Positions 1-52,976 of a DNA stretch of 52,976 nt are shown here, piece after piece. Positions within the stretch are counted from its first letter, which is position 1, and every line of letters begins with the position of its first letter. The position numbers and the translations under genes were made by a program. Location of the stretch: the NCBI GenBank assembly GCA_014691105.1, contig GCA_014691105.1_4891.1. One strand, written 5' to 3'. The notes beneath the pieces were generated by a model. It searched no databases. It was not told the DNA's origin and saw only the letters and a list, made by a program, of their open reading frames with translations. The DNA is from a phage.

Positions 1-144
1 AAAAAAAATAAAAAACCGGACTGATAAATAATTCGTAGGCATGTCTAAAGCCAGGCGTGGCAAGCTTCGGTGATATTTACTATGTTATTGTATGTTAGTG
101 TGCGTTATAATATATTTATTATTCAACAGATGAGTTGTGCAACT

Positions 145-651
145 ATGGATCCAATTGTAAAAGTATTTGAAGGTAAAAATATCACATTTTCATCAATTAA
201 GAGGGGTACCAAAATGGCATCCCTCATTGTTGTTAAAGGAAGCGATTTAGCTAAAGCGCTGGGCTACAGCTACGCGGAAAAACTTTATAAAAGGTTAGAC
301 AGCGATTATAAAATTACTGATGACAAAGGAGCAGTATGGGCAACTGAACCTGGTATTTATCAGGCTATATTCGGTTCGCAGCTTGAATCAGCTAAAGCAT
401 TTCAGCGCTGGGCATACGAAGAAGTATTTCCCACCATTCGTGGGAATGGTTATTACGTTACACCAGAGCTTCAACCAGCGCTGGATCTACTGTCTGATGA
501 AATAGACTTACTACGTGCATATGCTACAGCTGACTGCCACGGAAGAGCAAGGCTTAAGTCAAGAATTATGACGGTATGGAAAAAACAAGTAGAAAATGGT
601 AACTCTTTGGACCGCGTAGTCCAGATTTTAAAAGGAAACAGTGCATGGTAA
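145..651 (+). CDS. Bro-N/KilA-N domain protein (antirepressor-like DNA-binding protein)
   Basis: N-terminal VKVFEGKNITF...VVKGSDLAKALGY resembles the Bro-N motif; the ORF track starts at GTG 70 but in-frame ATGs at 130/145 precede the domain; stop overlaps the next start (ATGGTAA). Confidence 0.5.
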   Translation: MDPIVKVFEGKNITFSSIKRGTKMASLIVVKGSDLAKALGYSYAEKLYKRLDSDYKITDDKGAVWATEPGIYQAIFGSQLESAKAFQRWAYEEVFPTIRGNGYYVTPELQPALDLLSDEIDLLRAYATADCHGRARLKSRIMTVWKKQVENGNSLDRVVQILKGNSAW

Positions 652-1076
652 ATATTCGTGTTATTGGCCAGAACTTTGAGAGAAAGATGGCTAAAAAATT
701 CAACGAATCTTTTGGACTTGACTGCCAGCGTAACCTGCAGCAATCAATAAATGGCGGGGATGACTTGCTTGGTGTACCGTTTTTCAGCGTTGAACTGAAG
801 AAGCACAAGACCAAGTCTATCGGAACATGGTGGAGACAGTGTGCGGCATCAGCAAAGGCTCAGAACAAGATGCCGGTACTGATATACGAACTACCAAGAA
901 AACAGCCTACCGTGGTGATGAATAAGGCTGATGTGATTGACTGTTTTCCAAGTGGCACGACTTTTAACGAGGCATCGAACCGCCTCTTTGTGGGTCTAGT
1001 AGAATTAACATGGGAACAATTTTGCCGGGTCTACAACTATTACGTTGCGCCCGGCACTCAATATCACGTCAATTAA
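645..1076 (+). CDS. putative PD-(D/E)XK nuclease, Hjc-like resolvase fold
   Basis: GQNFERK...GGDDLLGV...FFSVELKK matches a G.FER / D / E.K nuclease motif arrangement; translationally coupled to the upstream Bro gene. Confidence 0.4.
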   Translation: MVNIRVIGQNFERKMAKKFNESFGLDCQRNLQQSINGGDDLLGVPFFSVELKKHKTKSIGTWWRQCAASAKAQNKMPVLIYELPRKQPTVVMNKADVIDCFPSGTTFNEASNRLFVGLVELTWEQFCRVYNYYVAPGTQYHVN

Positions 1077-1258
1077 TCTTGTTTCAGCTCGTCGCAAATA
1101 ACACGCTGATTTTTGGCGGGGATAATACCAAGATTTAGCAGGGTGTATGGACTATCAGCGACGCATTGTTCAACGGTAGTCCATTCAGGTTTGGATTCAA
1201 CAATTTCGTAATTACAGTCGTGAGCTGCAATACATGTTGCCAGGATTAAGCCAATCAC
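1073..1258 (-). CDS. hypothetical small early protein
   Basis: ORF track; GTG start overlaps the stop of an upstream unlisted small ORF (GTGA). Confidence 0.4.
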   Translation of the reverse strand: MIGLILATCIAAHDCNYEIVESKPEWTTVEQCVADSPYTLLNLGIIPAKNQRVICDELKQD

Positions 1259-1434
1259 AAGTAATCTCCATCAACCAGAAACTCAAACAATTGGTTGTAG
1301 ACGTTGCAACCTTTAGCGAAAGAGCTTTCAGCAGGTTTACCATCGCGGACAATCATCATATACTCACCGCCATGGATGTCCACCCAGTATTGCATGCCAC
1401 CTTTGACCGGATTACGTTGCAGAAATTTAAACAT
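1255..1434 (-). CDS. hypothetical small protein (59 aa, below ORF-track cutoff)
   Basis: Hand translation of the minus strand gives MFKFLQRNPVKGGMQYWVDIHGGEYMMIVRDGKPAESSFAKGCNVYNQLFEFLVDGDYL; ATG overlaps the upstream stop (TAATG) and its TGA overlaps the downstream GTG. Confidence 0.4.
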   Translation of the reverse strand: MFKFLQRNPVKGGMQYWVDIHGGEYMMIVRDGKPAESSFAKGCNVYNQLFEFLVDGDYL

Positions 1435-1679
1435 TATTTGCTCCTGATTCCAAGTTTATTCAATAACCAAATTGTCATGTCAACCCAGGTTAACGGTACA
1501 GTTTTCGGGGGTTGATAATCCCAGCAGCTTGCAGTTCTTTGTATTTCTGCTTGGCGCCGCTCCGCTTCGCGTAATACCGCATCGTCAGAAGTGCCGGCAG
1601 AAAAAAGATCGGTAACACCAGATAAATCGCGTTGATTAACACGTCGAGCAATGTCATATAAATCATCCTTAGAAAACAT
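1434..1679 (-). CDS. hypothetical protein
   Basis: ORF track, same strand as neighbours, coupled to downstream gene. Confidence 0.45.
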   Translation of the reverse strand: MFSKDDLYDIARRVNQRDLSGVTDLFSAGTSDDAVLREAERRQAEIQRTASCWDYQPPKTVPLTWVDMTIWLLNKLGIRSK

Positions 1680-1855
1680 AAGCCAATACCATAAGAATTA
1701 TCAGAAAGATCCCAACCAGCTTCCTCATAGCCCGACCTTCAGCATATGCAGGATTCACAACAGAATACTCAACAACATGTTTACAGCGGACCATAAGGCC
1801 TCCACTTGTGGGTTAATTCAATCATGAGGACTTTTGGCAAATCCTCATTGTTGAA

Positions 1856-2059
1856 TCACTCCATCATTACCTGAACTATTATTATACACTCTTTATTGAA
1901 GCGGGTAAACACCTTTCCTCCATTGGTGCGTTTAGCCCCAGATTTTAGAGCTGACTGGCACCAGACCTGCCACTCCTCAACTGTCAAGAATTTTTGCTCA
2001 GCTTTGGGTGGTAGTCCATTGGCAAGGTCTACCGTAGTAAATTTGACTAATGGCATCAC
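1856..2059 (-). CDS. hypothetical protein
   Basis: ORF track; start overlaps the stop of the 2056..2478 gene. Confidence 0.4.
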   Translation of the reverse strand: MMPLVKFTTVDLANGLPPKAEQKFLTVEEWQVWCQSALKSGAKRTNGGKVFTRFNKECIIIVQVMME

Positions 2060-2478
2060 TTGACCTCAAATTTTGACTCGTCATATTCCGGATCAGTCAC
2101 GTCCCGGGTCGCACAATTTTTGATTGCCTCCCAGTAACGTTGGGCGTCATCGCCATCGACATAAACTGTCCAGTGGCCGTAACCACCTTCAAATCTGTCC
2201 CAGGCTTGTTCCCAGACTTTGCCATCTTCCAGCTTGTACCAAGTTGGACGACTGTCAAACTCGCGGATTGGATGGTACCCCATCAAAGGATTCATCAGGT
2301 CAATAATGTCTTCCCGACTAATCTCCTGGTTCTCCCACAGCACCGTCATGAATTGCTCAAACTTGAAGGCGTTTGGCAGAACTTTGATGACTTCACCATC
2401 ACGATATACGGTATAGGTGCCATCTTCGCATTTTGCACTGTACATGTTTCTCTCTCCTATTGATATAATTTCAATCAT
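2056..2478 (-). CDS. hypothetical protein (140 aa)
   Basis: ORF track; no recognisable motif. Confidence 0.5.
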   Translation of the reverse strand: MIEIISIGERNMYSAKCEDGTYTVYRDGEVIKVLPNAFKFEQFMTVLWENQEISREDIIDLMNPLMGYHPIREFDSRPTWYKLEDGKVWEQAWDRFEGGYGHWTVYVDGDDAQRYWEAIKNCATRDVTDPEYDESKFEVK

Positions 2479-2513
2479 GAACTATCACAACTTTGGATAG
2501 TTCATTGTTGAAA

Positions 2514-2702
2514 CTATACTAACTTTGTTGCGATCTGAATTGTCAGCCGGAAATCTTCCATCAAGTTATCAAACTCTTTGGAACCACCAACAGCATCAGA
2601 TATTTGATCTTTCACGATTTGGGCATTTGATTCCAGTAATTCAATCAGGTGCGCCAATTCGTCTTCAGTCAATTTCAGGTCTTTCATAATGCATCCACCC
2701 AA
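2514..2702 (-). CDS. small early protein, MKDLKLT paralogue family member 1
   Basis: Likely true start at internal Met (about 2687) giving MKDLKLTEDELAHLIELLES...; N-terminus shared with two other small ORFs. Confidence 0.5.
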   Translation of the reverse strand: MGGCIMKDLKLTEDELAHLIELLESNAQIVKDQISDAVGGSKEFDNLMEDFRLTIQIATKLV

Positions 2703-2941
2703 GCCATAACTTTTGCCAGTCTTACAACGTCTTCATGGTCCCGCTCGCCATCAGAAAATTCGCTGGCGATGATACCCATAATTGACGCCAGATTCATGTT
2801 GATGATGTAGGCGTGTTGGCGCACTTCATCAATTCCTGAATCTATCACCAGTTCCGCAAATTCTTGTGAACCTTCATCCCATTCAGCCCAATACTGCTCA
2901 GCATAAAAGTCCAGTTCTTTTTTCATCTCAATATCAGTCAT
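2684..2941 (-). CDS. hypothetical acidic protein (85 aa)
   Basis: ORF track. Confidence 0.5.
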   Translation of the reverse strand: MTDIEMKKELDFYAEQYWAEWDEGSQEFAELVIDSGIDEVRQHAYIINMNLASIMGIIASEFSDGERDHEDVVRLAKVMAWVDAL

Positions 2942-2946
2942 TTTGA

Positions 2947-3147
2947 TTACTCCTCAGAACCTGAAAATTTGTCGTCAATGGCTTCAACAATATAATCAAG
3001 AGTTGAAGTGTGAGAACTATCAGAAAAAGTGCCCATCTTCTCTAACTCAATCATCATATCCCGCAAGGCCATCGCCTGGTCTTTGGTCAGTTTGATTTTA
3101 AGCATGTTTCTCTCCTGTTGATTGTGAATAATTTCAATTGATGGCAC
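2947..3147 (-). CDS. small early protein, paralogue family member 2
   Basis: Internal Met (about 3105) gives MLKIKLTKDQAMALRDMMIELEKMG..., similar N-terminal pattern to the MKDLKLT proteins. Confidence 0.45.
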   Translation of the reverse strand: MPSIEIIHNQQERNMLKIKLTKDQAMALRDMMIELEKMGTFSDSSHTSTLDYIVEAIDDKFSGSEE

Positions 3148-3169
3148 TACTTGAGTGCCATCTCAAAAA

Positions 3170-3796
3170 TTACTCTTCAGTTTCTTGTGCTTCAGTTTCA
3201 GGTTTTTTGCCAGTTACTGATTTGCCATCAGTCACTTTACCAGATTTTACATCATTACGGTAATAGGACATATAGGATTGGACAACACGTTTTGCCCTAA
3301 TATCATCCGCTTCCATCCCACAGGCTTTCATGGCATCGGCCAGCGCCAATTTGGAATCTTCTTTGTCCATCAAATTGTAGTCCTTGAATACTGCATAGCA
3401 GGTATCTTTGGTTGACGGACCGGATGAAGTTTTGCGGGTGCCACCAGCAGATGCTCGTGTTGTCGCAACTTTGACCTCTTCAACTTCCAGTTGGTTAAGC
3501 TCATCAAATAGGGCTTTCACCAGCACTTCTTTTGAGTCTTTGACACTTACAGAACTTTCATCATTAAGGGACTTAATCATCTTAATGATCTGGTTATTGG
3601 CAAAGTACTGCAGGCTATCCATCTGCACTACAATAGTCCCAAGACTTTCAGTAGTCAGACCAGATTTTACAGACTCGACAGAAAAAGCGGAAGTCAGGTA
3701 AACATAGTTGATAGTAGTCATTGATGTATCCTCGTCAATAGAATTTTGGTAAGCGCCAATCCCTGGCAAGTAAGTCCAAACATGACAACTTGACAA
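3170..3796 (-). CDS. hypothetical protein (up to 208 aa)
   Basis: ORF track; probable start at an internal Met (MTTINYVY...). Confidence 0.5.
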   Translation of the reverse strand: MSSCHVWTYLPGIGAYQNSIDEDTSMTTINYVYLTSAFSVESVKSGLTTESLGTIVVQMDSLQYFANNQIIKMIKSLNDESSVSVKDSKEVLVKALFDELNQLEVEEVKVATTRASAGGTRKTSSGPSTKDTCYAVFKDYNLMDKEDSKLALADAMKACGMEADDIRAKRVVQSYMSYYRNDVKSGKVTDGKSVTGKKPETEAQETEE

Positions 3797-3814
3797 AAGT
3801 TGTCATGATTGAAA

Positions 3815-3994
3815 TCACTTCAATTTGTTAAGTATTTTGGTCAATAGCTCAACTCTTTCTTCCTGGTCAGTAGGGTCAAAGTTTTCAATTGACTCCTTCC
3901 AGTCCTCCAGCAGTTCCTTTTCATTAAATATTGAAATGTCAAGAAATTCAACCAATAACTCAACTTCTTTTTTAGTCAATTTCAAATCTTTCAT
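3815..3994 (-). CDS. small early protein, paralogue family member 3 (59 aa, unlisted)
   Basis: Hand translation: MKDLKLTKKEVELLVEFLDISIFNEKELLEDWKESIENFDPTDQEERVELLTKILNKLK, preceded by a GAGGG-type RBS; the overlapping plus ORF 3825..4025 is low-complexity and probably spurious. Confidence 0.5.
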   Translation of the reverse strand: MKDLKLTKKEVELLVEFLDISIFNEKELLEDWKESIENFDPTDQEERVELLTKILNKLK

Positions 3995-4008
3995 CTTGTA
4001 TGACCCTC

Positions 4009-4212
4009 TTACCCTTGATATTTGACTACTTGCGACTGGATGAAATCAACACAATCTTCCACGTCCATTGATTCAAAATCTGGAACTGGTCCATTATTAA
4101 TGTTGACACACCATAGCCCTTCATTACAATCGTACCAAAGCGTATAGTTGTCTTTCATAATAGTTACTCCTGCTATTAGTTTCCAGGCGTGGCTACTGCT
4201 TCCAATAGCCAC
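4009..4212 (-). CDS. hypothetical small Cys-containing protein
   Basis: ORF track; likely start at internal Met (MKDNYTLWYDCNEG...) preceded by AGGAG. Confidence 0.4.
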   Translation of the reverse strand: MAIGSSSHAWKLIAGVTIMKDNYTLWYDCNEGLWCVNINNGPVPDFESMDVEDCVDFIQSQVVKYQG

Positions 4213-4518
4213 TAGTTGAAACTATTACCAGCGTTACTATCAACAAGAAACATGTTACCAAATTGTTAAAGAGCGGTCTGGTACTATTCGACCAGGTAAA
4301 GTTATTATTTGCGCATCTTGACGACACGCGCCAGACAAGACGCTTGACACATTCATCATTCGTCTTGATGTAATAATTATAGGCCAGTCAATCAATGTTG
4401 TACATAAAAGAATTGCAAGTTTATGCAAGTTTTTAGAAATGATAATCACTTGCGATTGAGAGTGGTTCTCATATGCAATTGATATAGTTTCACATGTAAT
4501 TACTCACTTCAAAATGGT

Positions 4519-4575
4519 CGGCAGGGGTTATAATCACATAGGGGTGCCACTTAAAGGAGCCGGCGAAATTATTTA
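4519..4575. repeat. copy 1 of a ~55-bp intergenic repeat (GGGGTTATAAT..AGGGGTGCCAC..AGGAGCCGGCGAAATT)
   Basis: Aligns at roughly 70% identity with 4693..4750 when read by eye; contains a perfect TATAAT. Confidence 0.6.
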
Positions 4576-4692
4576 TAAAAATATAATTTCAATCTGAATT
4601 ATAGACGCTTTGTGCTATAACGGCTGAAGTAGTTCATACGGTAATTGTATCAATCGCAATAGTTACCAGAGTAATCATTTCAATTGAAATAG

Positions 4693-4750
4693 GTGCGGCG
4701 GGGGGTAATTTCGCAGGGGTGCTACCTGCCAGGAGCCAGCGGAATTTTTT
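4693..4750. repeat. copy 2 of the intergenic repeat (GGGGGTAATTT..AGGGGTGCTAC..AGGAGCCAGCGGAATT)
   Basis: See copy 1; both lie in the divergent control region between the leftward and rightward early genes. Confidence 0.6.
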
Positions 4751-4967
4751 ATTTTTTCTCTATTTTCTCCTTATCAGGACCAATCATCATCAGAGTAACA
4801 CGGCAGGAGCTAACCTTTTGCTTATCACAATAATAAGTGAAGCCCCTCTAAAATTTTTTTATATTTTTCGGAAATTGTGTAGACACTCACTAAAAAGTGG
4901 TGTACTTTCTCTCCTCCACGCGCTATCATTAATGTGAATCATCAAACGGCCTCACGGTCTCCTACTT

Positions 4968-5456
4968 GTGGGTAACATTATGAAAATTGTTCAATTAGAG
5001 CCATATCCGCCTCAATTGGCTATCGTTTGCAGCGAAAAAGAGCACGAAGAGCTCCAAAAACTGATGGATTTGCCTGATTTTGGCAACTGGAATGACCGGG
5101 AAACACGTAATGCATCTACCTTTACATTCTCTCGCGTTAACTATCCGTACCTGTTAATCGTCGTCGAACTGTACCACCCGGACGACCTGAAGTACAACAC
5201 CATTTCCCACGAGGGCATTCACGTAATGTCGTCGCTGATGAACTATGTAGGGCTTAAATACGACCCAGAAAACGATGAATGGTACGCATATCAGCATGAT
5301 TTCATCGTAAATGCCATTTGTAAGGCCCATGACGAGTATATAGAGCGCCAAAAAACGCCAAAAACTAAGCCAAAAATAGAAACAGGTAACCATCCTGCAA
5401 TACTGCCACAAGACGTAATGAACTCGCTTTTGACTGACACTACTGGGGACTTTTAG
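4968..5456 (+). CDS. hypothetical protein with HExxH motif (possible zinc metallopeptidase-like)
   Basis: HEGIH motif in ISHEGIHVMSSL; first gene of the rightward block; start could be GTG 4968 or ATG 4980. Confidence 0.45.
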   Translation: MGNIMKIVQLEPYPPQLAIVCSEKEHEELQKLMDLPDFGNWNDRETRNASTFTFSRVNYPYLLIVVELYHPDDLKYNTISHEGIHVMSSLMNYVGLKYDPENDEWYAYQHDFIVNAICKAHDEYIERQKTPKTKPKIETGNHPAILPQDVMNSLLTDTTGDF

Positions 5457-8093: not shown

Positions 8094-9542
8094 ATGAACC
8101 TTGACTTTCACCTGCATGACAGACAAGGTGCCGCTCTGCAGTCTCAGGCAACTGAGATTCTGTACGGTGGCGCCGCTGGTGGTGGTAAGTCTCACCTTAT
8201 GCGTGTAATGTCAATTATCATGTGCTGCATGATACCTGACTTGCAGATTTACCTTTTCCGCCGAAACTATAACGACCTTACGGCTAACCACATGGTTGGT
8301 CCCACAAGTTATCCTGCCTTGCTGGACGGTATGTGCAAAGCTGGCAAGTGCAAGATTAACTACTCGAGCAACACGATTAAATTCTGGAACGGTGCGAACA
8401 TCAAACTCTGTCACCTCCAGTACGAAAAAGATATTTATACCTACCAGGGTGCGGAGATTCACGTTCTGCTGATGGATGAGCTTACTCACTTCACAGAAAC
8501 GATGTACCGCTTCTTGCGTAACCGTGTCCGACTCGGTGCTCTTAAAGTCCCTGAGAACTTTTTCCGGCCACTGCCACTCATCTTTTGTGGGTCAAACCCC
8601 GGTGGTGTTGGTCACAACTGGGTCAAGCGTACTTTCGTAACTGCTGCTCCTCCGATGAAAATCGTTAAGCAAGATAAACGCGAAGGTGGTATGGCGCGTC
8701 AGTACATTCCGGCTAAGATGACTGATAACCCTACGCTGATGGAAAACGATCCTGACTACGGTGACCGTCTTGAAGGTCTTGGTGACCCGGCTCTTGTTGC
8801 TGCTATGAAAGAGGGTGACTGGGATATTGTTGCTGGTGGTGCGCTTGACGACGTATGGTCAACCAAGTGTATTCTGCCTCGTATGCGTATTCCAAAAGGC
8901 TGGACTATCGAACGTTCTCTTGACTGGGGTTCTACTCACCCGTTCTCTGTTGGTATCTGGGCTATTGCAAATGGCGCTTCGCTTACAGACGACGAAGGCA
9001 ATGAGTACTTTATTCCGCGTGGTTCAATTATACGTATAGCTGAATGGTATGGGTGCTCTGAAAAAGAAGCTAACAGGGGTATTAAGCTATCTGCTGCCGA
9101 AGTCGCTCAAGGTGTTCTTCGCCTACAGGAAAATCTGCAGGCTGGTGGCTGGATTCAAAGCAACGTTAATCCTGGTCCGGCGGATAGTCAGATTTATGCG
9201 TGCAAGGAAAAAGACGTTGAGACTATCGCGAAGAAAATGGAAGACGAAGGCGTAACCTGGGTCAAGGCCGACAAGTCACAAGGTTCGAGAATAAATGGCT
9301 TAGAGCTATTCCGTCAGCTTCTGAAAAATGTTAAGATGGACGAAACGGAAAAGCCGGGCATTTATTTCATGGAAAACTGTCCAGCAGCCATAAACACGTT
9401 GCCGGTTCTGCCGCGTGACAAGAACAACACGGAAGATGTCGACACGAACTCTGAAGACCACGTATACGATGATTGTCGTTACATGGTGTTGCGTGGCATC
9501 AACCGTTATACTACCAAGCTCAAAATAAATATGGGACGGTAA
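8094..9542 (+). CDS. terL: terminase large subunit
   Basis: Walker A GGAAGGGKSH, Walker B-like VLLMDELTH, C-terminal nuclease-like region; followed directly by the portal gene. Confidence 0.85.
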   Translation: MNLDFHLHDRQGAALQSQATEILYGGAAGGGKSHLMRVMSIIMCCMIPDLQIYLFRRNYNDLTANHMVGPTSYPALLDGMCKAGKCKINYSSNTIKFWNGANIKLCHLQYEKDIYTYQGAEIHVLLMDELTHFTETMYRFLRNRVRLGALKVPENFFRPLPLIFCGSNPGGVGHNWVKRTFVTAAPPMKIVKQDKREGGMARQYIPAKMTDNPTLMENDPDYGDRLEGLGDPALVAAMKEGDWDIVAGGALDDVWSTKCILPRMRIPKGWTIERSLDWGSTHPFSVGIWAIANGASLTDDEGNEYFIPRGSIIRIAEWYGCSEKEANRGIKLSAAEVAQGVLRLQENLQAGGWIQSNVNPGPADSQIYACKEKDVETIAKKMEDEGVTWVKADKSQGSRINGLELFRQLLKNVKMDETEKPGIYFMENCPAAINTLPVLPRDKNNTEDVDTNSEDHVYDDCRYMVLRGINRYTTKLKINMGR

Positions 9543-49763: not shown

Positions 49764-50096
49764 ATGATAAAGCCAAAACTGTTGCGGCATATTCGCAACG
49801 GTATTAAGCTACTCGCTGAAGGCAATGAGTATGCCTGCAAGCAACGCGGTATTACAAAAGTCGGCCTGTTCAATAAAGAGTTACCAACTCGCTACTTTAC
49901 CAAATCACCACTAACACTCGTACCTGCAGCGGAGTATTATAAAGACCCCGAAGCAGCCAGGGCTAAAATCAAGGAAGGTCTTGACCGACTTGTAGAGGAA
50001 GGCTATTTGACAGTACGTCAACACACTGAATCATCTTATTACTACAAGCCAACTTCTAAGGTAACCAGCAATGACAATGACGAGTCAGCCGAGTGA
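49764..50096 (+). CDS. hypothetical protein
   Basis: ORF track; overlaps the primase start. Confidence 0.45.
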   Translation: MIKPKLLRHIRNGIKLLAEGNEYACKQRGITKVGLFNKELPTRYFTKSPLTLVPAAEYYKDPEAARAKIKEGLDRLVEEGYLTVRQHTESSYYYKPTSKVTSNDNDESAE

Positions 50097-52605
50097 TATT
50101 CTCGGTCTGAAATACTTTAAGCCAGAAGGGATTCCCCAAGTCTTCAAAGATATGAAGCGCTGGGCTATCTTTGAGCTGACGTACGAAGACGAGACCCTCG
50201 AAGTTCAATCCAAACCTAAGAAACCTGCAAGAGCGCCATCAGGCCGTTCCTTCAGCACAACAGTGCCTGAAGAGTGGATGACTTTCGACGACGCCCTGAC
50301 ACGTTGTATCCGCAATCGTGAAATGAAGATTAAAGCTGTACAGGGTAACATCACCTTTGTGCCGGCTTTGATTGTTCCTCGCCAGTGGTACTTTGTTGAC
50401 CTGGACAACCATGATGATAATCCAGACATTGAAGCTACCCACAAAGCGATAATTGAGGGGACTCGTGGCGCTTATGCTGAGACGTCAATCTCCGGCAAAG
50501 GGCAACACATTGCAATCCCTTTACCCTGGACTGCAGCAACATCCAAAGAGAAAGACGAACAGCTGGACATCAAAATCCAGAAGGCTGAGATGTTCCTGGT
50601 AATGACAGGCAATGTATTGAGCGAGTTCAATGCTAATCCTGTTTCAGCCCGTGAATGGCATGCAGCAATTGAGAAGTTCTTTCTTGAATCAAGCGCACCT
50701 GACATTGATGTTGAGTTTGAGCAAGACGAAGACCGTGGCGAAGAGTATGACAAAGAGCTATACGAACAGTTAGCCGACAATACTCGCTGGGCGCTTGAAC
50801 ATTATCTTAGCGACTATGCACCAGACGGTGTTGGTGTGAGTAATGACGGTTCCGAACGTTTAAGCCGCATACTCAAAGACTTGCTTCGTGTAACCCGTAA
50901 CTATGAAGTTACACAACGCATCTTCATGGCCAGCAAAGCTGCAGCATATGAAGGCCGCAGACCAAGTCGACATAACCTGTCTGTTGATAAGTATCATCAG
51001 TGGTTCAGTCGTGTCGGTAAGACTGTGCTGAAAGAGATGCAACGTGACGGCTTATTCGTTAAGACCAAGTTTGCTCTTGACATCAACAAAGAGTTAGCCA
51101 AGAATTCAGGTGTCTCCCTGGCTGAGAACGTTGAGTTCAAGGTCAACGACGACATTCTGCCTTCTGATGTATTCGTCAGGACGGCCCCGTCCGGGTTTAA
51201 ACGGCTTATTGCTGAGATACAGGATAACATATCTCCTGCTAACAGGGTTAACGACTATGCCATCGGCACAGCTCTTAACATCCTGAGCAACTGCGCCGGT
51301 CGCAAGTATGTTTGTCCAGTAGGCGGTCATGCTAACTTCCTGGTAACCAACATCATTCTTGTGGGTGGTTCATCAATCGGTAAATCCCTGTATACCGAAA
51401 TGTTCCCACAAATCCAGGCAAGTTTACCTGACACATCACCTATCAGTCTTAACCGTATCCCAAGGGAACAGACTTTTGCAACCAGGACGTTTGCTGAACT
51501 GATGTCCAACCCGTCATACCATTCAGTTCAGTTGTTCTATCCTGAATTTGGTCTGGCTTTAGGTTCAGGCTTACGCATGAATCCTAACAACCCGGACAAC
51601 TTTCAGAAAGCTCTGATGGACGCTTCAACCAAGCGTAAGGTTGGCGGTATACTGACAGGTATCAAACGTGCTAATGCTGACAATGATGTCAAGACAGTAA
51701 GTGAACCGTGTTACTCTATCCTGGGTGACTCAACTCAAGAGCTTATCCTTGACAACACCCGGAAGCAAGACTTCTCAAGTGGCTTTTTGCCCCGCTTCCT
51801 GTTCATCCCGAACTACGAACGAGCGGAGTTTGCCAAACCTGAGAAGGTAGGACGTCGCCAGCAGATTCGCCGTACGTCCTTTTCAAAAGAACTGATTGAG
51901 AAGCTGGAAGCAATCGCTTATGTGAATGCTATCCCGCCTAACGGTAAACTAAGGCACGACCCGATTCCTATTTACGATGAGTCGGACGATGATGACTTCC
52001 TGTACGAGTACCAGTGCAATATTAATGATATGCGCCAGTATTACAGGGACAACGAAGTAGCGTCTGCCTTTGTGGGCCGAATGGGTGAGTATGTATTCAA
52101 TATAGCAGCACTGATTGGCTTACTCGACAACTGGGATGCTCCTGTAATGACCAGGGACAACATCGAATGGGCTTACAAATATGTTCTTCGTTGTATAACT
52201 GCCTGGGTCAATAACACAAGCAGGATAGTCGCACCACCAACTACCAACGCCGAAGTAGTGGACGGCTTCCTCAAAGTCTACAGGGACATTTTGGCCCTTT
52301 ACACCAAAAGAGGATGGTCTGGCATAGTCAAGCATTATCCTGAAGGTGTTGTAAGAAGCTTACGGGAAGACCATCTGAAAATGAACGGGCTTAGCATATA
52401 TGCTATCCGGCAATCATTAAGTTGGTTCAAATCCAATTACGGCTTTAACATAACCGCTAATAACAAGGTTATTGACGGTATGTTGCAGGATATGATTGAC
52501 CAGGACTATTTAGCAGTCCAAATATACAAACCCACAAGAGGGAAATCGGCAAATATCTACTGTTTAACCGAACGGGGATACGACGAAGCCAAGAAACTTA
52601 AGTAA
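50071..52605 (+). CDS. bifunctional primase-polymerase (AEP) fused to an SF3 helicase
   Basis: AEP motif I WYFVDLDNHDD and motif II SISGKGQHIAIPL in the N-terminal third; Walker A LVGGSSIGKS in the C-terminal half. Confidence 0.75.
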   Translation: MTMTSQPSDILGLKYFKPEGIPQVFKDMKRWAIFELTYEDETLEVQSKPKKPARAPSGRSFSTTVPEEWMTFDDALTRCIRNREMKIKAVQGNITFVPALIVPRQWYFVDLDNHDDNPDIEATHKAIIEGTRGAYAETSISGKGQHIAIPLPWTAATSKEKDEQLDIKIQKAEMFLVMTGNVLSEFNANPVSAREWHAAIEKFFLESSAPDIDVEFEQDEDRGEEYDKELYEQLADNTRWALEHYLSDYAPDGVGVSNDGSERLSRILKDLLRVTRNYEVTQRIFMASKAAAYEGRRPSRHNLSVDKYHQWFSRVGKTVLKEMQRDGLFVKTKFALDINKELAKNSGVSLAENVEFKVNDDILPSDVFVRTAPSGFKRLIAEIQDNISPANRVNDYAIGTALNILSNCAGRKYVCPVGGHANFLVTNIILVGGSSIGKSLYTEMFPQIQASLPDTSPISLNRIPREQTFATRTFAELMSNPSYHSVQLFYPEFGLALGSGLRMNPNNPDNFQKALMDASTKRKVGGILTGIKRANADNDVKTVSEPCYSILGDSTQELILDNTRKQDFSSGFLPRFLFIPNYERAEFAKPEKVGRRQQIRRTSFSKELIEKLEAIAYVNAIPPNGKLRHDPIPIYDESDDDDFLYEYQCNINDMRQYYRDNEVASAFVGRMGEYVFNIAALIGLLDNWDAPVMTRDNIEWAYKYVLRCITAWVNNTSRIVAPPTTNAEVVDGFLKVYRDILALYTKRGWSGIVKHYPEGVVRSLREDHLKMNGLSIYAIRQSLSWFKSNYGFNITANNKVIDGMLQDMIDQDYLAVQIYKPTRGKSANIYCLTERGYDEAKKLK

Positions 52606-52610
52606 AATCA

Positions 52611-52650
52611 AGGGCTTATGTAGTAAAATACGTAAGCCCTTATTTTATAT
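52611..52650 (+). terminator. rho-independent terminator
   Basis: Stem AGGGCTTATGTA / TACGTAAGCCCT followed by TATTTTAT. Confidence 0.65.
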
Positions 52651-52976
52651 ACTCTTTTTGCTCCGGTAGACTAGTTATGGAATAAATAAACCGTGTTTTT
52701 CGAATTAAGTGCACTTAAGCTACTGTTTTATATACTCTTTTCTTTTTACATGAATTAGTAAATATATGGAGCCCTTTATAAAGAAAAAGGGGGGTAATAA
52801 GGGGATCCAAGTACCGGATAAAAGGGGGTATATATTTATTTATTATTATTATTATTATTATATATTATTAATTATATTAGAAGTAATAAAAACAGCTACT
52901 TAGAGGTGTCTATATGTATGATCCGGTTTATCTCTTTATTAATATCAGAACCGGATGAAAAAAATTTACGCTGGCG
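52643..52976. repeat. AT-rich non-coding terminal region with direct repeats, a palindrome and an (ATT)n microsatellite
   Basis: TTTTATATACTCTTT at 52643-52657 and 52726-52740; palindrome TTAAGTGCACTTAA at 52705-52718; (ATT)6-7 near 52838-52860; two GGGGGTA motifs. Confidence 0.6.

What the first reader, a model, noticed from the sequence alone, without database searches (positions are those of the whole stretch)
52611..52976. AT-rich right-end region with direct repeats, a 14-bp palindrome and an (ATT)n microsatellite
After the primase terminator the sequence is non-coding and very AT-rich. It contains two copies of TTTTATATACTCTTT, the palindrome TTAAGTGCACTTAA, an (ATT)6-7 tract, two GGGGGTA motifs and several CCGGA-containing repeats that also occur at the window start. 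This fits a genome terminus, packaging site or origin, and the microsatellite could vary in length.
Basis: seen in the sequence. Interest (0 to 1): 0.55.

Follow-up and report, generated by a model that had tools for sequence, protein, structure and literature searches.

The report
Left boundary of phage terminal repeat
The AT-rich stretch at the right end of this phage genome runs up to the site where, in three related phages, the packaged DNA begins and a terminal repeat of about 4 kb starts, so it is a real genome end of a kind already known in this phage group.

Summary
The window is a Rosemountvirus-type phage genome whose end joins its start without a gap. Three relatives have mapped or recorded ends: fHy-Eco03 (PhageTerm plus restriction), AEV23 (PhageTerm) and vB_SalM_Sz (record carries both repeat copies). 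In all three, virion DNA starts at the position matching window 52972|52973, four bases before the window's end, and carries a direct terminal repeat of 3.7 to 4.3 kb. The matching right boundary is at window 4737|4738. This predicts a 4,741-bp repeat, collapsed in this assembly, and virion DNA of about 57.7 kb. Both boundaries share one motif in inverted orientation, an A-tract followed by TTNCGCT^GGC. A loose form of that motif occurs nowhere else in the window. So the "genome terminus / packaging site" reading is supported by homology. The 14-bp palindrome is neither significant nor conserved, and the TTTTATATACTCTTT pair is lineage-specific. The GGGGGTA motifs are deleted in a viable relative. 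The (ATT)n tract does vary, from 3 to 7 copies. An origin of replication was not tested. This is a new member of a known kind.

The parts
50071..52605 (+). Primase/helicase gene (844 aa) whose transcript ends just before the finding
   Evidence: ORF list. Annotated as primase in relatives. Weak Pfam DUF3987 match.
52610..52651 (+). Intrinsic terminator of the primase operon: 13-bp stem, 6-nt loop, then ATTTTATATA
   Evidence: Terminator scan on the collinear birk locus, L001 2711-2742, which equals window 52610-52641. DNA fold z = -5.7. Conserved in 19 phages with a compensatory change, GGGCTTA/TAAGCCC to GGACTTA/TAAGTCC.
52630..52658 (+). First copy of the 29-nt direct repeat (holds TTTTATATACTCTTT); overlaps the terminator's descending arm and T-tract
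   Evidence: family D1. Present only in the window, birk, yarpen, emhyr, ciri and SE13 lineage.
52705..52718 (.). 14-bp palindrome TTAAGTGCACTTAA
   Evidence: Not significant, 118 of 2000 simulations. Does not fold significantly, z = +0.7. Not conserved beyond the closest relatives.
52713..52741 (+). Second copy of the 29-nt direct repeat. Its core (TAAG..CTKnTTTTAT) is a block conserved in all 19 phages.
52783..52830 (+). G-rich pair GAAAAAGGGGGGTA and GATAAAAGGGGGTA flanking AGTACCGGATAAAA
   Evidence: families D2 and D3. Exact GGGGGTAAT occurs in the window only at 52790 and 4701. The whole block is missing in phage emhyr through a 76-bp deletion, so it is dispensable.
52840..52879 (.). A/T-only microsatellite zone; exact (ATT)6 at 52842-52859
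   Evidence: TRF, period 3, 13 copies. Copy number in 20 phages: 6 in ten of them, 7 in ciri, 5 in triss, emhyr and KE26, 5+5 in brunost, 4 in ZCSE2 and fHy-Eco03, 3 in SE4; the two most distant (SOI901, KM) carry other A/T repeats.
52882..52903 (+). Conserved block AGTAATAAAAACAGCTACTTAG; AAAACA and ACTTA are invariant in 19 phages. Function unknown.
   Evidence: The pattern is unique in the window.
52921..52956 (.). Inverted repeat ATCCGGTT-N20-AACCGGAT, 16 to 52 bp left of the cut site
   Evidence: pair I6. The arms are conserved but drift independently in distant phages. The fold is not significant, z = -1.3.
52957..52976 (+). Left cut-site motif GAAAAAAATTTACGCT^GGCG. The predicted left end of virion DNA lies between 52972 and 52973.
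   Evidence: Aligns base for base with the first base of the terminal repeat in fHy-Eco03 and vB_SalM_Sz and in AEV23. The core GCY^GGCG holds in 18 of 19 aligned phages; KM reads CCC^GGCG. The pattern is unique in the window.
52973..52976 (+). First 4 bases (GGCG) of the predicted direct terminal repeat
1..4737 (+). Remainder of the predicted 4,741-bp direct terminal repeat. It holds A8TA6 (1-15), CCGGACTG (16-23), the Bro-N/Ant gene (145-651), a PD-(D/E)XK resolvase annotated RusA-like (645-1076), and small minus-strand genes of unknown function (ORFs 1073-4449).
   Evidence: Repeat extents in relatives. Gene content. Lowest GC in the genome, 0.39-0.43.
4731..4760 (-). Right cut-site motif, read on the bottom strand: GAGAAAAAATAAAAAATTCCGCT^GGCTCCT. 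The predicted right end of virion DNA lies between 4737 and 4738.
   Evidence: Aligns with the last base of the repeat in Sz and fHy-Eco03 and AEV23. Conserved in 12 phages. The pattern hit is at 4735-4750 on the minus strand.
4516..4600 (+). Degenerate second copy of the right-boundary module, GGGGTTATAAT..GGGGTGCC..GGAGCC|GGCGAAATTATTT, 176 bp inside the repeat
   Evidence: Conserved in all 12 phages. It is not the boundary used in Sz, fHy-Eco03 or AEV23.
8094..9542 (+). Large terminase subunit, the enzyme presumed to cut at the two sites
   Evidence: Weak Pfam Terminase_6N match. Homologue annotated as terminase in S144 (PMC7432712).

Best explanation
The window is a Rosemountvirus-type phage genome in which a direct terminal repeat (DTR) has been collapsed, and the record was opened almost exactly at the left physical end. 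The finding region is the non-coding spacer between the primase terminator and the left DTR boundary.

Its last 20 nt, GAAAAAAATTTACGCT^GGCG, are the left cleavage site, with the cut between 52972 and 52973. The same motif sits in inverted orientation at 4731-4760, with the cut between 4737 and 4738. That gives a 4,741-bp repeat and virion DNA of about 57.7 kb.

Inferred mechanism: in the replicated concatemer there is one repeat copy between neighbouring genomes. The terminase recognises the oligo-A tract plus the GCY^GGC core at both boundaries. It cuts or nicks the top strand on the left and the bottom strand on the right, and the repeat is then copied so that every packaged genome carries it at both ends. 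The conserved blocks and CCGGAT repeats beside the cut are candidate recognition elements.

What is shown: the positions of ends in three relatives, the homology of both boundaries, and the uniqueness of the motif. What is inferred: that this phage cuts at the same positions, which enzyme does it, the two-nick scheme, and any role for the upstream AT-rich part.
For: 1. The window's end and start join collinearly. The junction aligns without gaps over 1,276 bp at 97.8% identity to an internal part of phage birk.
2. fHy-Eco03 has 3,699-bp DTRs found by PhageTerm and confirmed by restriction digests (PMC8145870). Its repeat starts 360 bp after the primase stop.
3. The vB_SalM_Sz record carries an exact 4,263-bp DTR starting 356 bp after the primase stop.
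4. Both repeats start at ...GCY^GGCG and end at ...CC^RGC, and these positions align to window 52972|52973 and 4737|4738.
5. AEV23 has a 3,915-bp DTR by PhageTerm (PMC12918118). The distance between the two motif-defined sites is exactly 3,915 bp in S144 and in AEV23. In the AEV23 record, phage DNA stops at the left cut and bacterial IS5 DNA follows.
6. Restriction mapping of S144 put a physical end in the gap that holds the right site, and excluded cohesive ends (PMC7432712).
7. The pattern AAAAA-N3-9-GCYGGS hits the 53-kb window only at 52958-52975 (+) and 4735-4750 (-). None of 100 shuffles gave as many hits.
8. Six records from different laboratories (this window, Sz, fHy-Eco03, AEV23, PEA2-3, SB2) open within 12 bp of the left cut, and LPSEYT opens about 7 bp from the right cut.
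9. Predicted virion lengths agree: 57.0, 57.0, 57.5 and 57.7 kb.
Against: There are no reads or virion DNA for this phage, so its own ends are inferred from relatives that are 70-95% identical in this region.

The window opens 4 bp from the mapped position, not at it. BP63-type records open 75 bp to the left. Records may have been re-oriented to match each other, so they are not fully independent.

The method behind the Sz repeat is not known to me.

The left and right cores do not co-vary cleanly across phages; GCC and GCT vary independently.

The motif pattern was written after seeing the window's own sites.

The two-nick scheme and the choice of terminase as the nuclease rest on analogy only.
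Confidence: 0.8

Rival explanations
1. Origin of replication. The AT-rich core, flanked by short repeats (GGGGGTA, ACCGGAT) and lying directly after the primase/helicase gene, would be where the phage initiator binds and melts DNA. This could hold instead of, or alongside, the terminus role.
For: 29% GC. ACCGGA and TCCGGT are enriched about 30-fold. Conserved blocks flank an A/T-only zone in all 19 phages. The position directly downstream of the replication gene resembles iteron-flanked AT-rich origins next to pri/rep genes, as in SaPI and P4-type replicons (my own knowledge).
Against: The repeats have no regular spacing or uniform orientation. Both GGGGGTA motifs and one ACCGGAT are deleted in the viable phage emhyr. 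Cumulative GC skew turns near 5 kb and 34 kb, following gene orientation, and not here. There is no functional data for any relative.
Confidence: 0.2
2. An ordinary gap between genes holding a terminator, a spacer and a promoter. On this reading the window's ends are an arbitrary cut in a circular or circularly permuted (headful) genome.
For: A clear terminator. A promoter follows: TTTACA-17-TACAAT with a TG, 47 to 75 bp right of the site in yarpen. The junction is seamless. Most GenBank relatives are deposited without repeats and opened elsewhere.
Against: Fixed ends with DTRs were reported at this exact position in fHy-Eco03 and AEV23, and Sz is deposited with both repeat copies. The S144 digests do not fit a circular map. 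An inverted copy of the motif lies exactly where the repeat ends. Several records open within 12 bp of the site.
Confidence: 0.07
3. A regulatory switch. Changes in (ATT)n length would alter spacing or bending between protein-binding blocks and so tune early transcription or packaging efficiency.
For: The tract varies between 3 and 7 copies, with a duplication in brunost. It lies between conserved blocks.
Against: Ten of 20 phages, including members of two genera, share the identical 60-bp AT block. S144 differs from its close relative ZCSE2 in this region, which suggests block exchange and not tuning. No sigma-70-like promoter above chance overlaps the tract.
Confidence: 0.1

Closest known systems
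Direct terminal repeats of fHy-Eco03 (3,699 bp), AEV23 (3,915 bp) and vB_SalM_Sz (4,263 bp), which are Rosemountvirus, Loughboroughvirus and allied phages
   Same: Both boundaries are homologous to the base. Gene order is the same: primase, spacer, repeat with the resolvase and small minus-strand genes, then the Ku-like gene. Total virion length is similar, at 57.0-57.7 kb.
   Different: This window's repeat would be longer, at 4,741 bp, because it carries an extra Bro-N/Ant gene. The repeat is not represented in the window. The termini of this phage have not been measured.
Long terminal repeats of Twort-like staphylococcal myoviruses (Kayvirus, e.g. phage K, vB_SauM-515A1)
   Same: The repeats are several kb long. 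A short sequence marks the repeat boundaries in inverted orientation: 12-bp TAAGTACCTGGG / CCCAGGTACTTA (PMC7596081). The repeat carries small early host-takeover genes (PMC11598898).
   Different: No sequence or protein relatedness was tested. The motif here is an A-tract plus GCY^GGC, about 18 nt and imperfect. The repeat is half the length and the genome a third the size. Early expression of the repeat genes here is only inferred from sigma-70-like promoters.
T7 concatemer junction
   Same: Fixed ends, one repeat copy per junction in the concatemer, and site-specific processing. An inverted repeat sits just left of the junction (52921-52956 here). T7 processing is said to involve a hairpin near that position; this is from my own knowledge and is a lead only.
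   Different: The T7 repeat is 160 bp and gene-free. The inverted repeat here has only an 8-bp stem and is not thermodynamically significant. No T7-type RNA polymerase is reported for these phages: none was identified in S144 (PMC7432712).
Phage 9g (Nonagvirus), the nearest large terminase relative according to PMC7432712
   Same: A read pile-up indicated a fixed physical end with a terminal repeat (PMC4276943).
   Different: The repeat length and boundary sequence are not defined. The RefSeq record is opened elsewhere, so no comparison of sites was possible.

Membership tests
Phage genome with fixed ends and long direct terminal repeats | Virion DNA starts and stops at unique positions (read-start peaks or discrete end fragments) | not testable with these tools
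   No reads or DNA of this phage were available. Met in relatives: fHy-Eco03 by PhageTerm plus digests, AEV23 by PhageTerm, and S144 by digests.
Phage genome with fixed ends and long direct terminal repeats | The same sequence is present at both ends of the virion DNA | not testable with these tools
   The window holds one copy only. The Sz record has two exact 4,263-bp copies and fHy-Eco03 has two 3,699-bp copies.
Phage genome with fixed ends and long direct terminal repeats | The boundary sequences of relatives with mapped ends are conserved at the syntenic positions | tested here: met
   Left...ACGCT^GGCG at 52972|52973. Right...GGAGCC^AGCGG at 4737|4738. The left boundary is aligned in 19 phages and the right in 12. 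The motif is unique in the window.
Phage genome with fixed ends and long direct terminal repeats | The large terminase belongs to a clade that packages from fixed ends | not tested
   Only a weak Terminase_6N match was obtained here. PMC7432712 reports that the S144 terminase clusters with phage 9g.
Headful (pac) packaging with circular permutation | No fixed ends; permuted, terminally redundant molecules | tested here: inconclusive
   The seamless end-to-start join fits both models. Relatives show fixed ends, which argues against headful packaging.
Cohesive-end (cos) packaging | Single-stranded complementary ends that anneal | not testable with these tools
   In S144, fast and slow cooling of digests gave the same pattern, so cohesive ends were excluded (PMC7432712).
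Iteron-type replication origin | Three or more initiator-binding repeats with regular spacing beside an AT-rich unwinding element | tested here: inconclusive
   An AT-rich zone and enriched short repeats are present. Their spacing and orientation are irregular, and some are dispensable in emhyr. Initiator binding is not testable.
Rho-independent terminator (52610-52651) | A GC-containing hairpin followed by a T-tract, downstream of a gene on the same strand | tested here: met
   13-bp stem, 6-nt loop, ATTTTATATA tail. z = -5.7. A compensatory stem change occurs across phages.

The most novel reading that the evidence does not exclude
The A-tract-TTNCGCY^GGC motif, present once at each repeat boundary in opposite orientation and nowhere else in the genome, is the complete recognition and nicking site of this terminase. 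The top strand is nicked at the left boundary and the bottom strand at the right, and strand-displacement synthesis across the 4.7 kb between them creates the terminal repeat. If so, this small Salmonella/E. coli phage group, which is easy to work with, would offer a defined two-site substrate for studying how long terminal repeats are made. That step is still poorly understood for phages such as T5, SPO1 and phage K. The neighbouring conserved blocks around the AT-rich microsatellite could be the small-terminase landing pad.
Probability: 0.35. Interest if true: 0.5.

Novelty: new member of a known kind. Interest (0 to 1): 0.33.

Why it matters
For this genome, the deposited 52,976-bp sequence probably understates the virion DNA by about 4.7 kb. 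About fifteen genes (two plus-strand genes and the small minus-strand ORFs) would then be present twice per particle. Most Rosemountvirus and Loughboroughvirus records, about 50 in GenBank, lack the repeat and are opened at arbitrary points. These phages are being developed for Salmonella and E. coli biocontrol, so correct ends matter for annotation, for engineering and for regulatory dossiers.

More generally, the shared inverted cut-site motif gives a testable handle on how long terminal repeats are generated. The finding does not reveal a new kind of system.

Tried and rejected
- Rfam at a permissive E-value gave only chance-level hits, and no tRNA or tmRNA was found.
- GC skew follows gene orientation and does not mark the region.
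- The sigma-70 scan found no promoter above chance within 52611-52976.
- Folding the palindrome and the CCGGAT inverted repeat as single strands gave z-scores of +0.7 and -1.3. I therefore dropped hairpin or cruciform readings for them.
- I first thought the left and right cores co-vary between phages (CGCT^GGC against TGCC^GG). With ten phages the pattern is not clean, so I do not claim covariation.
- A search for further 12-mers shared between the two boundary regions found only the A-tracts. A tentative shared TATCAGRACC element matched only 9 of 14 positions and was dropped.
- The 9g RefSeq record is opened inside the DNA polymerase region, so its reported physical end could not be compared.
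- The 45-aa and 31-aa ORFs in the region were rejected as genes, because G-run and microsatellite indels break their frames in close relatives.

Full report
**What the window is.** The 577 bases ending the window match about 48 phage records. Most are Salmonella and Escherichia phages of the genera Rosemountvirus and Loughboroughvirus, with up to 99.5% identity. In most of those records the matching stretch is internal. When the window's end is joined to its start (52401-52976 plus 1-700), the junction aligns without a gap over 1,276 bp at 97.8% identity to an internal part of phage birk. So the window is a complete phage genome written as a closed sequence. It was opened inside the 516-bp gap between the primase/helicase gene (50071-52605, +) and a Bro-N/Ant gene (145-651, +). 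A PD-(D/E)XK resolvase annotated RusA-like follows (645-1076, +), then a block of small minus-strand genes.

**Check of the observation.**
- GC content is 29% against 46% for the window.
- The "primase terminator" is real. It has a 13-bp stem, a 6-nt loop and a T-rich tail, with z = -5.7 against shuffles. A compensatory stem change occurs across phages.
- In 2000 first-order Markov simulations of the 366 nt, the 15-16-nt direct repeat (2 of 2000) and the trinucleotide run (0 of 2000) are non-random. The 14-bp palindrome is not (118 of 2000).
- ACCGGA and TCCGGT are enriched about 30-fold in this gap between genes.
- The small ORFs in the region do not survive indels in close relatives. Rfam and tRNA searches found nothing.

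**Where the physical ends are in relatives.** Four lines of evidence bear on this.
- *fHy-Eco03 (57,011 bp).* It has 3,699-bp direct terminal repeats identified with PhageTerm and confirmed by restriction digestion (PMC8145870). The record annotates them. The right copy starts 360 bp after the primase stop.
- *vB_SalM_Sz (57,020 bp).* The record carries two exact copies of 4,263 bp. The right copy starts 356 bp after the primase stop.
- *AEV23.* It is reported to have a 3,915-bp repeat by PhageTerm (PMC12918118).
- *S144.* Restriction analysis did not fit a circular map, excluded cohesive ends, and placed an end in the gap between the small minus-strand genes and the next plus-strand cluster (PMC7432712).

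**Mapping those ends onto the window.**
- The repeats of Sz and fHy-Eco03 begin at ...TTTACGCT^GGCGAAAAAAAT and ...TTATTGCC^GGCGCAAAAAG. The window reads ...TTTACGCT^GGCG|AAAAAAAAT, where | is the window's end. The left end therefore maps between 52972 and 52973, four bases before the window's last base.
- The repeats end at ...CCAGGAGCC^AGCGGAATTTTTTT (Sz) and ...TTTAAGCCCC^GGCAAATTTTTT (fHy-Eco03). The window has ...CCAGGAGCC^AGCGGAATTTTTT at 4737|4738.
- As a check, the distance between the two motif-defined sites is exactly 3,915 bp in S144 and in AEV23 itself, equal to the published AEV23 repeat length.
- In the AEV23 record, phage DNA stops at the first base of the repeat. A bacterial IS5 element follows, which suggests a chimeric join at a true DNA end.
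- The predicted repeat in the window is 52973-52976 plus 1-4737, which is 4,741 bp. It is longer than in Sz mainly because of the extra Bro-N gene.
- Predicted virion lengths are consistent: 57,717 bp here, 57,020 for Sz, 57,011 for fHy-Eco03 and 57,543 for S144.

**A shared, inverted cut-site motif.** Reading the strand that would carry the new 5' end at each boundary gives these two sequences:
- Left, top strand: GGATGAAAAAAATTTACGCT^GGCG
- Right, bottom strand: GAGAAAAAATAAAAAATTCCGCT^GGCT

The same architecture, an oligo-A tract followed by TT, two or three bases and GCY^GG, holds in nine of the ten phages examined at both boundaries. S144 reads CGTC^GGCG at its right boundary. The left core GCY^GGCG holds in 18 of 19 aligned phages, the exception being KM (CCC^GGCG). 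A loose pattern, AAAAA-N3-9-GCYGGS, hits the whole 53-kb window on either strand only at 52958-52975 (+) and 4735-4750 (-). None of 100 shuffles gave as many hits. I wrote the pattern after seeing the window's sites, so the test is not fully blind, but the pattern holds in the other phages too. I do not claim covariation between the left and right cores, because GCC and GCT vary independently.

**Independent hints from how records are opened.** Six records open within 12 bp of the left cut: this window (+4), Sz (0), fHy-Eco03 (0), AEV23 (+8, plus the IS5 join at 0), PEA2-3 (about +12) and SB2 (record end at about -1). LPSEYT opens about 7 bp from the right cut. BP63 and three records that open at the same point do so 75 bp to the left, within the conserved block at 52882-52903. 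Some of these choices may come from PhageTerm re-orientation or copying, so I count them as weak support.

**What the rest of the finding region looks like across 19-20 phages.**
- *Conserved:* the terminator; a block at 52713-52730; the A/T-only character of 52830-52880; the block AGTAATAAAAACAGCTACTTAG at 52882-52903, with AAAACA and ACTTA invariant; the ATCCGGTT/AACCGGAT arms; the A-tract and cut core; and, inside the repeat, AAAAAAGYCGGATTG.
- *Not conserved:* the TTTTATATACTCTTT pair and the palindrome, which occur only in the closest lineage.
- *G-rich motifs:* these are widespread, and exact GGGGGTAAT occurs in the window only at 52790 and 4701, each upstream of a boundary. However, phage emhyr lacks 76 bp covering both left-hand copies. 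They are therefore not essential, if that assembly is right.
- *(ATT) run:* 6 copies in ten phages, 7 in ciri, 5 in triss, emhyr and KE26, 5+5 in brunost, 4 in ZCSE2 and fHy-Eco03, and 3 in SE4. The two most distant phages (SOI901, KM) carry other A/T repeats.
- *Caution on the identical 60-bp AT block:* S144 and AEV23 share it with Rosemountviruses, but ZCSE2, of the same species as S144, does not. Its identity may therefore reflect recombination and not constraint.

**How it most likely works.** The positions of ends in relatives, the homology and the motif's uniqueness are shown. The rest is inferred.
- Replication gives concatemers with one repeat copy between genomes.
- The terminase (large subunit at 8094-9542) recognises the A-tract and core motif at both boundaries.
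- The inverted orientation fits a nick in the top strand at the left and in the bottom strand at the right. Synthesis through the repeat would then leave each packaged genome with a copy at both ends.
- The conserved blocks and CCGGAT repeats within about 100 bp left of the cut are candidate landing sites for the small terminase subunit.
- Sigma-70-like promoters sit just inside both repeat ends. One is TTTACA-17-TACAAT with a TG, 47 to 75 bp right of the left cut in yarpen. The other is a leftward TGTACA-17-TATAAT at 4404-4376 in the window.
- This fits the repeat holding early genes, as in phage K (PMC11598898). That is analogy, not data.

**Rivals.**
- An origin of replication is not excluded and could coexist with the terminus. 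The AT-rich core, the flanking repeats and the position next to the replication gene fit one. The repeats are irregular and partly dispensable, and skew is uninformative.
- An arbitrary opening in a permuted genome is unlikely, given the relatives' fixed ends.
- A microsatellite-based switch has no support beyond the length variation.

**Comparison with what is known.** The closest match is the terminal repeat already described in fHy-Eco03 and AEV23, which has the same boundaries. By architecture, the nearest analogue is the long terminal repeat of Twort-like staphylococcal phages. There, 12-bp inverted repeats mark the boundaries (PMC7596081) and the repeat genes are early. T7 shares the general logic but has a 160-bp, gene-free repeat. 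I found no paper in the library that describes the cut-site motif for this phage group.

**Verdict.** It is a new member of a known kind. The useful outcome is a corrected genome map for this phage and many relatives, plus a testable cut-site motif.

Noticed in passing
window 4516-4600: This is a degenerate second copy of the right-boundary module, GGGGTTATAAT..GGGGTGCC..GGAGCC|GGCGAAATTATTTATAAAAATATAATTT. It lies 176 bp inside the repeat and is conserved in all 12 phages aligned. Its GCC|GGCGAAA core has the orientation of the left site. It is not the boundary used in Sz, fHy-Eco03 or AEV23, and its role is unknown; it could be an alternative or ancestral site, or a promoter module.
   Followed up: partly
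window 4408-4515: This non-coding block of about 110 bp is nearly identical in 12 phages that differ by 25-30% elsewhere in the region. It includes a tandem TGCAAGTTTA repeat at 4414-4432. It lies just upstream of a leftward sigma-70-like promoter (4404-4376). It may be an operator or early control region.
   Followed up: partly
window 145-651: The first gene inside the predicted repeat varies among close relatives. It is a Bro-N/Ant gene here and in birk, emhyr and triss. It is absent in BP63, yarpen, Sz and JEP7. A homing endonuclease sits there in LPSEYT, and fHy-Eco03 has a 65-aa ORF. This looks like a hot spot for gene gain and loss right next to the DNA end.
   Followed up: partly
L017 4895-6638 (OR810919.1, about 53894-55637): The AEV23 record ends with about 1.7 kb of bacterial DNA (an IS5-family transposase and a methyltransferase). 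The first kilobase (the IS5 part) is 97% identical to plasmid-borne IS5 copies. It is joined exactly at the left end of the phage's terminal repeat. This is probably a chimeric assembly and not phage sequence, and it would explain the 'rearrangement' noted in the paper.
   Followed up: yes
L019 (phage emhyr, MT074444), corresponding to window about 52769-52844: A 76-bp deletion removes both GGGGGTA motifs, one ACCGGAT and part of the microsatellite. If real, it is a natural test showing these elements are dispensable.
   Followed up: partly
L008 against L014 (S144 against ZCSE2), left spacer between genes: S144 and AEV23 carry the Rosemountvirus version of the AT-rich block, identical over 60 bp. 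ZCSE2, classified in the same species as S144, carries a different version. This points to recombination within the spacer.
   Followed up: no
window 1-5000: The predicted terminal repeat has the lowest GC of the genome, 0.39-0.43 against 0.46. The cumulative GC skew minimum lies at about 5 kb, near the right repeat boundary, where transcription diverges.
   Followed up: no
records PP583539.1, KY608966.1 and PQ800157.1: Three database labels look odd. A 'Listeria phage' is 94-98% identical to these Salmonella phages. CF2 is filed under Tequatrovirus and marked UNVERIFIED. A 3,661-bp record, 'Klebsiella phage Kpn_R1', matches this spacer at 70% identity.
   Followed up: no
PMC8145870 (fHy-Eco03): The authors report that many restriction enzymes fail to cut the DNA and suspect an unknown base modification. 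The nearest terminase and polymerase relative, phage 9g, is classified in the subfamily Queuovirinae. Whether this window's phage modifies its DNA was not examined.
   Followed up: no
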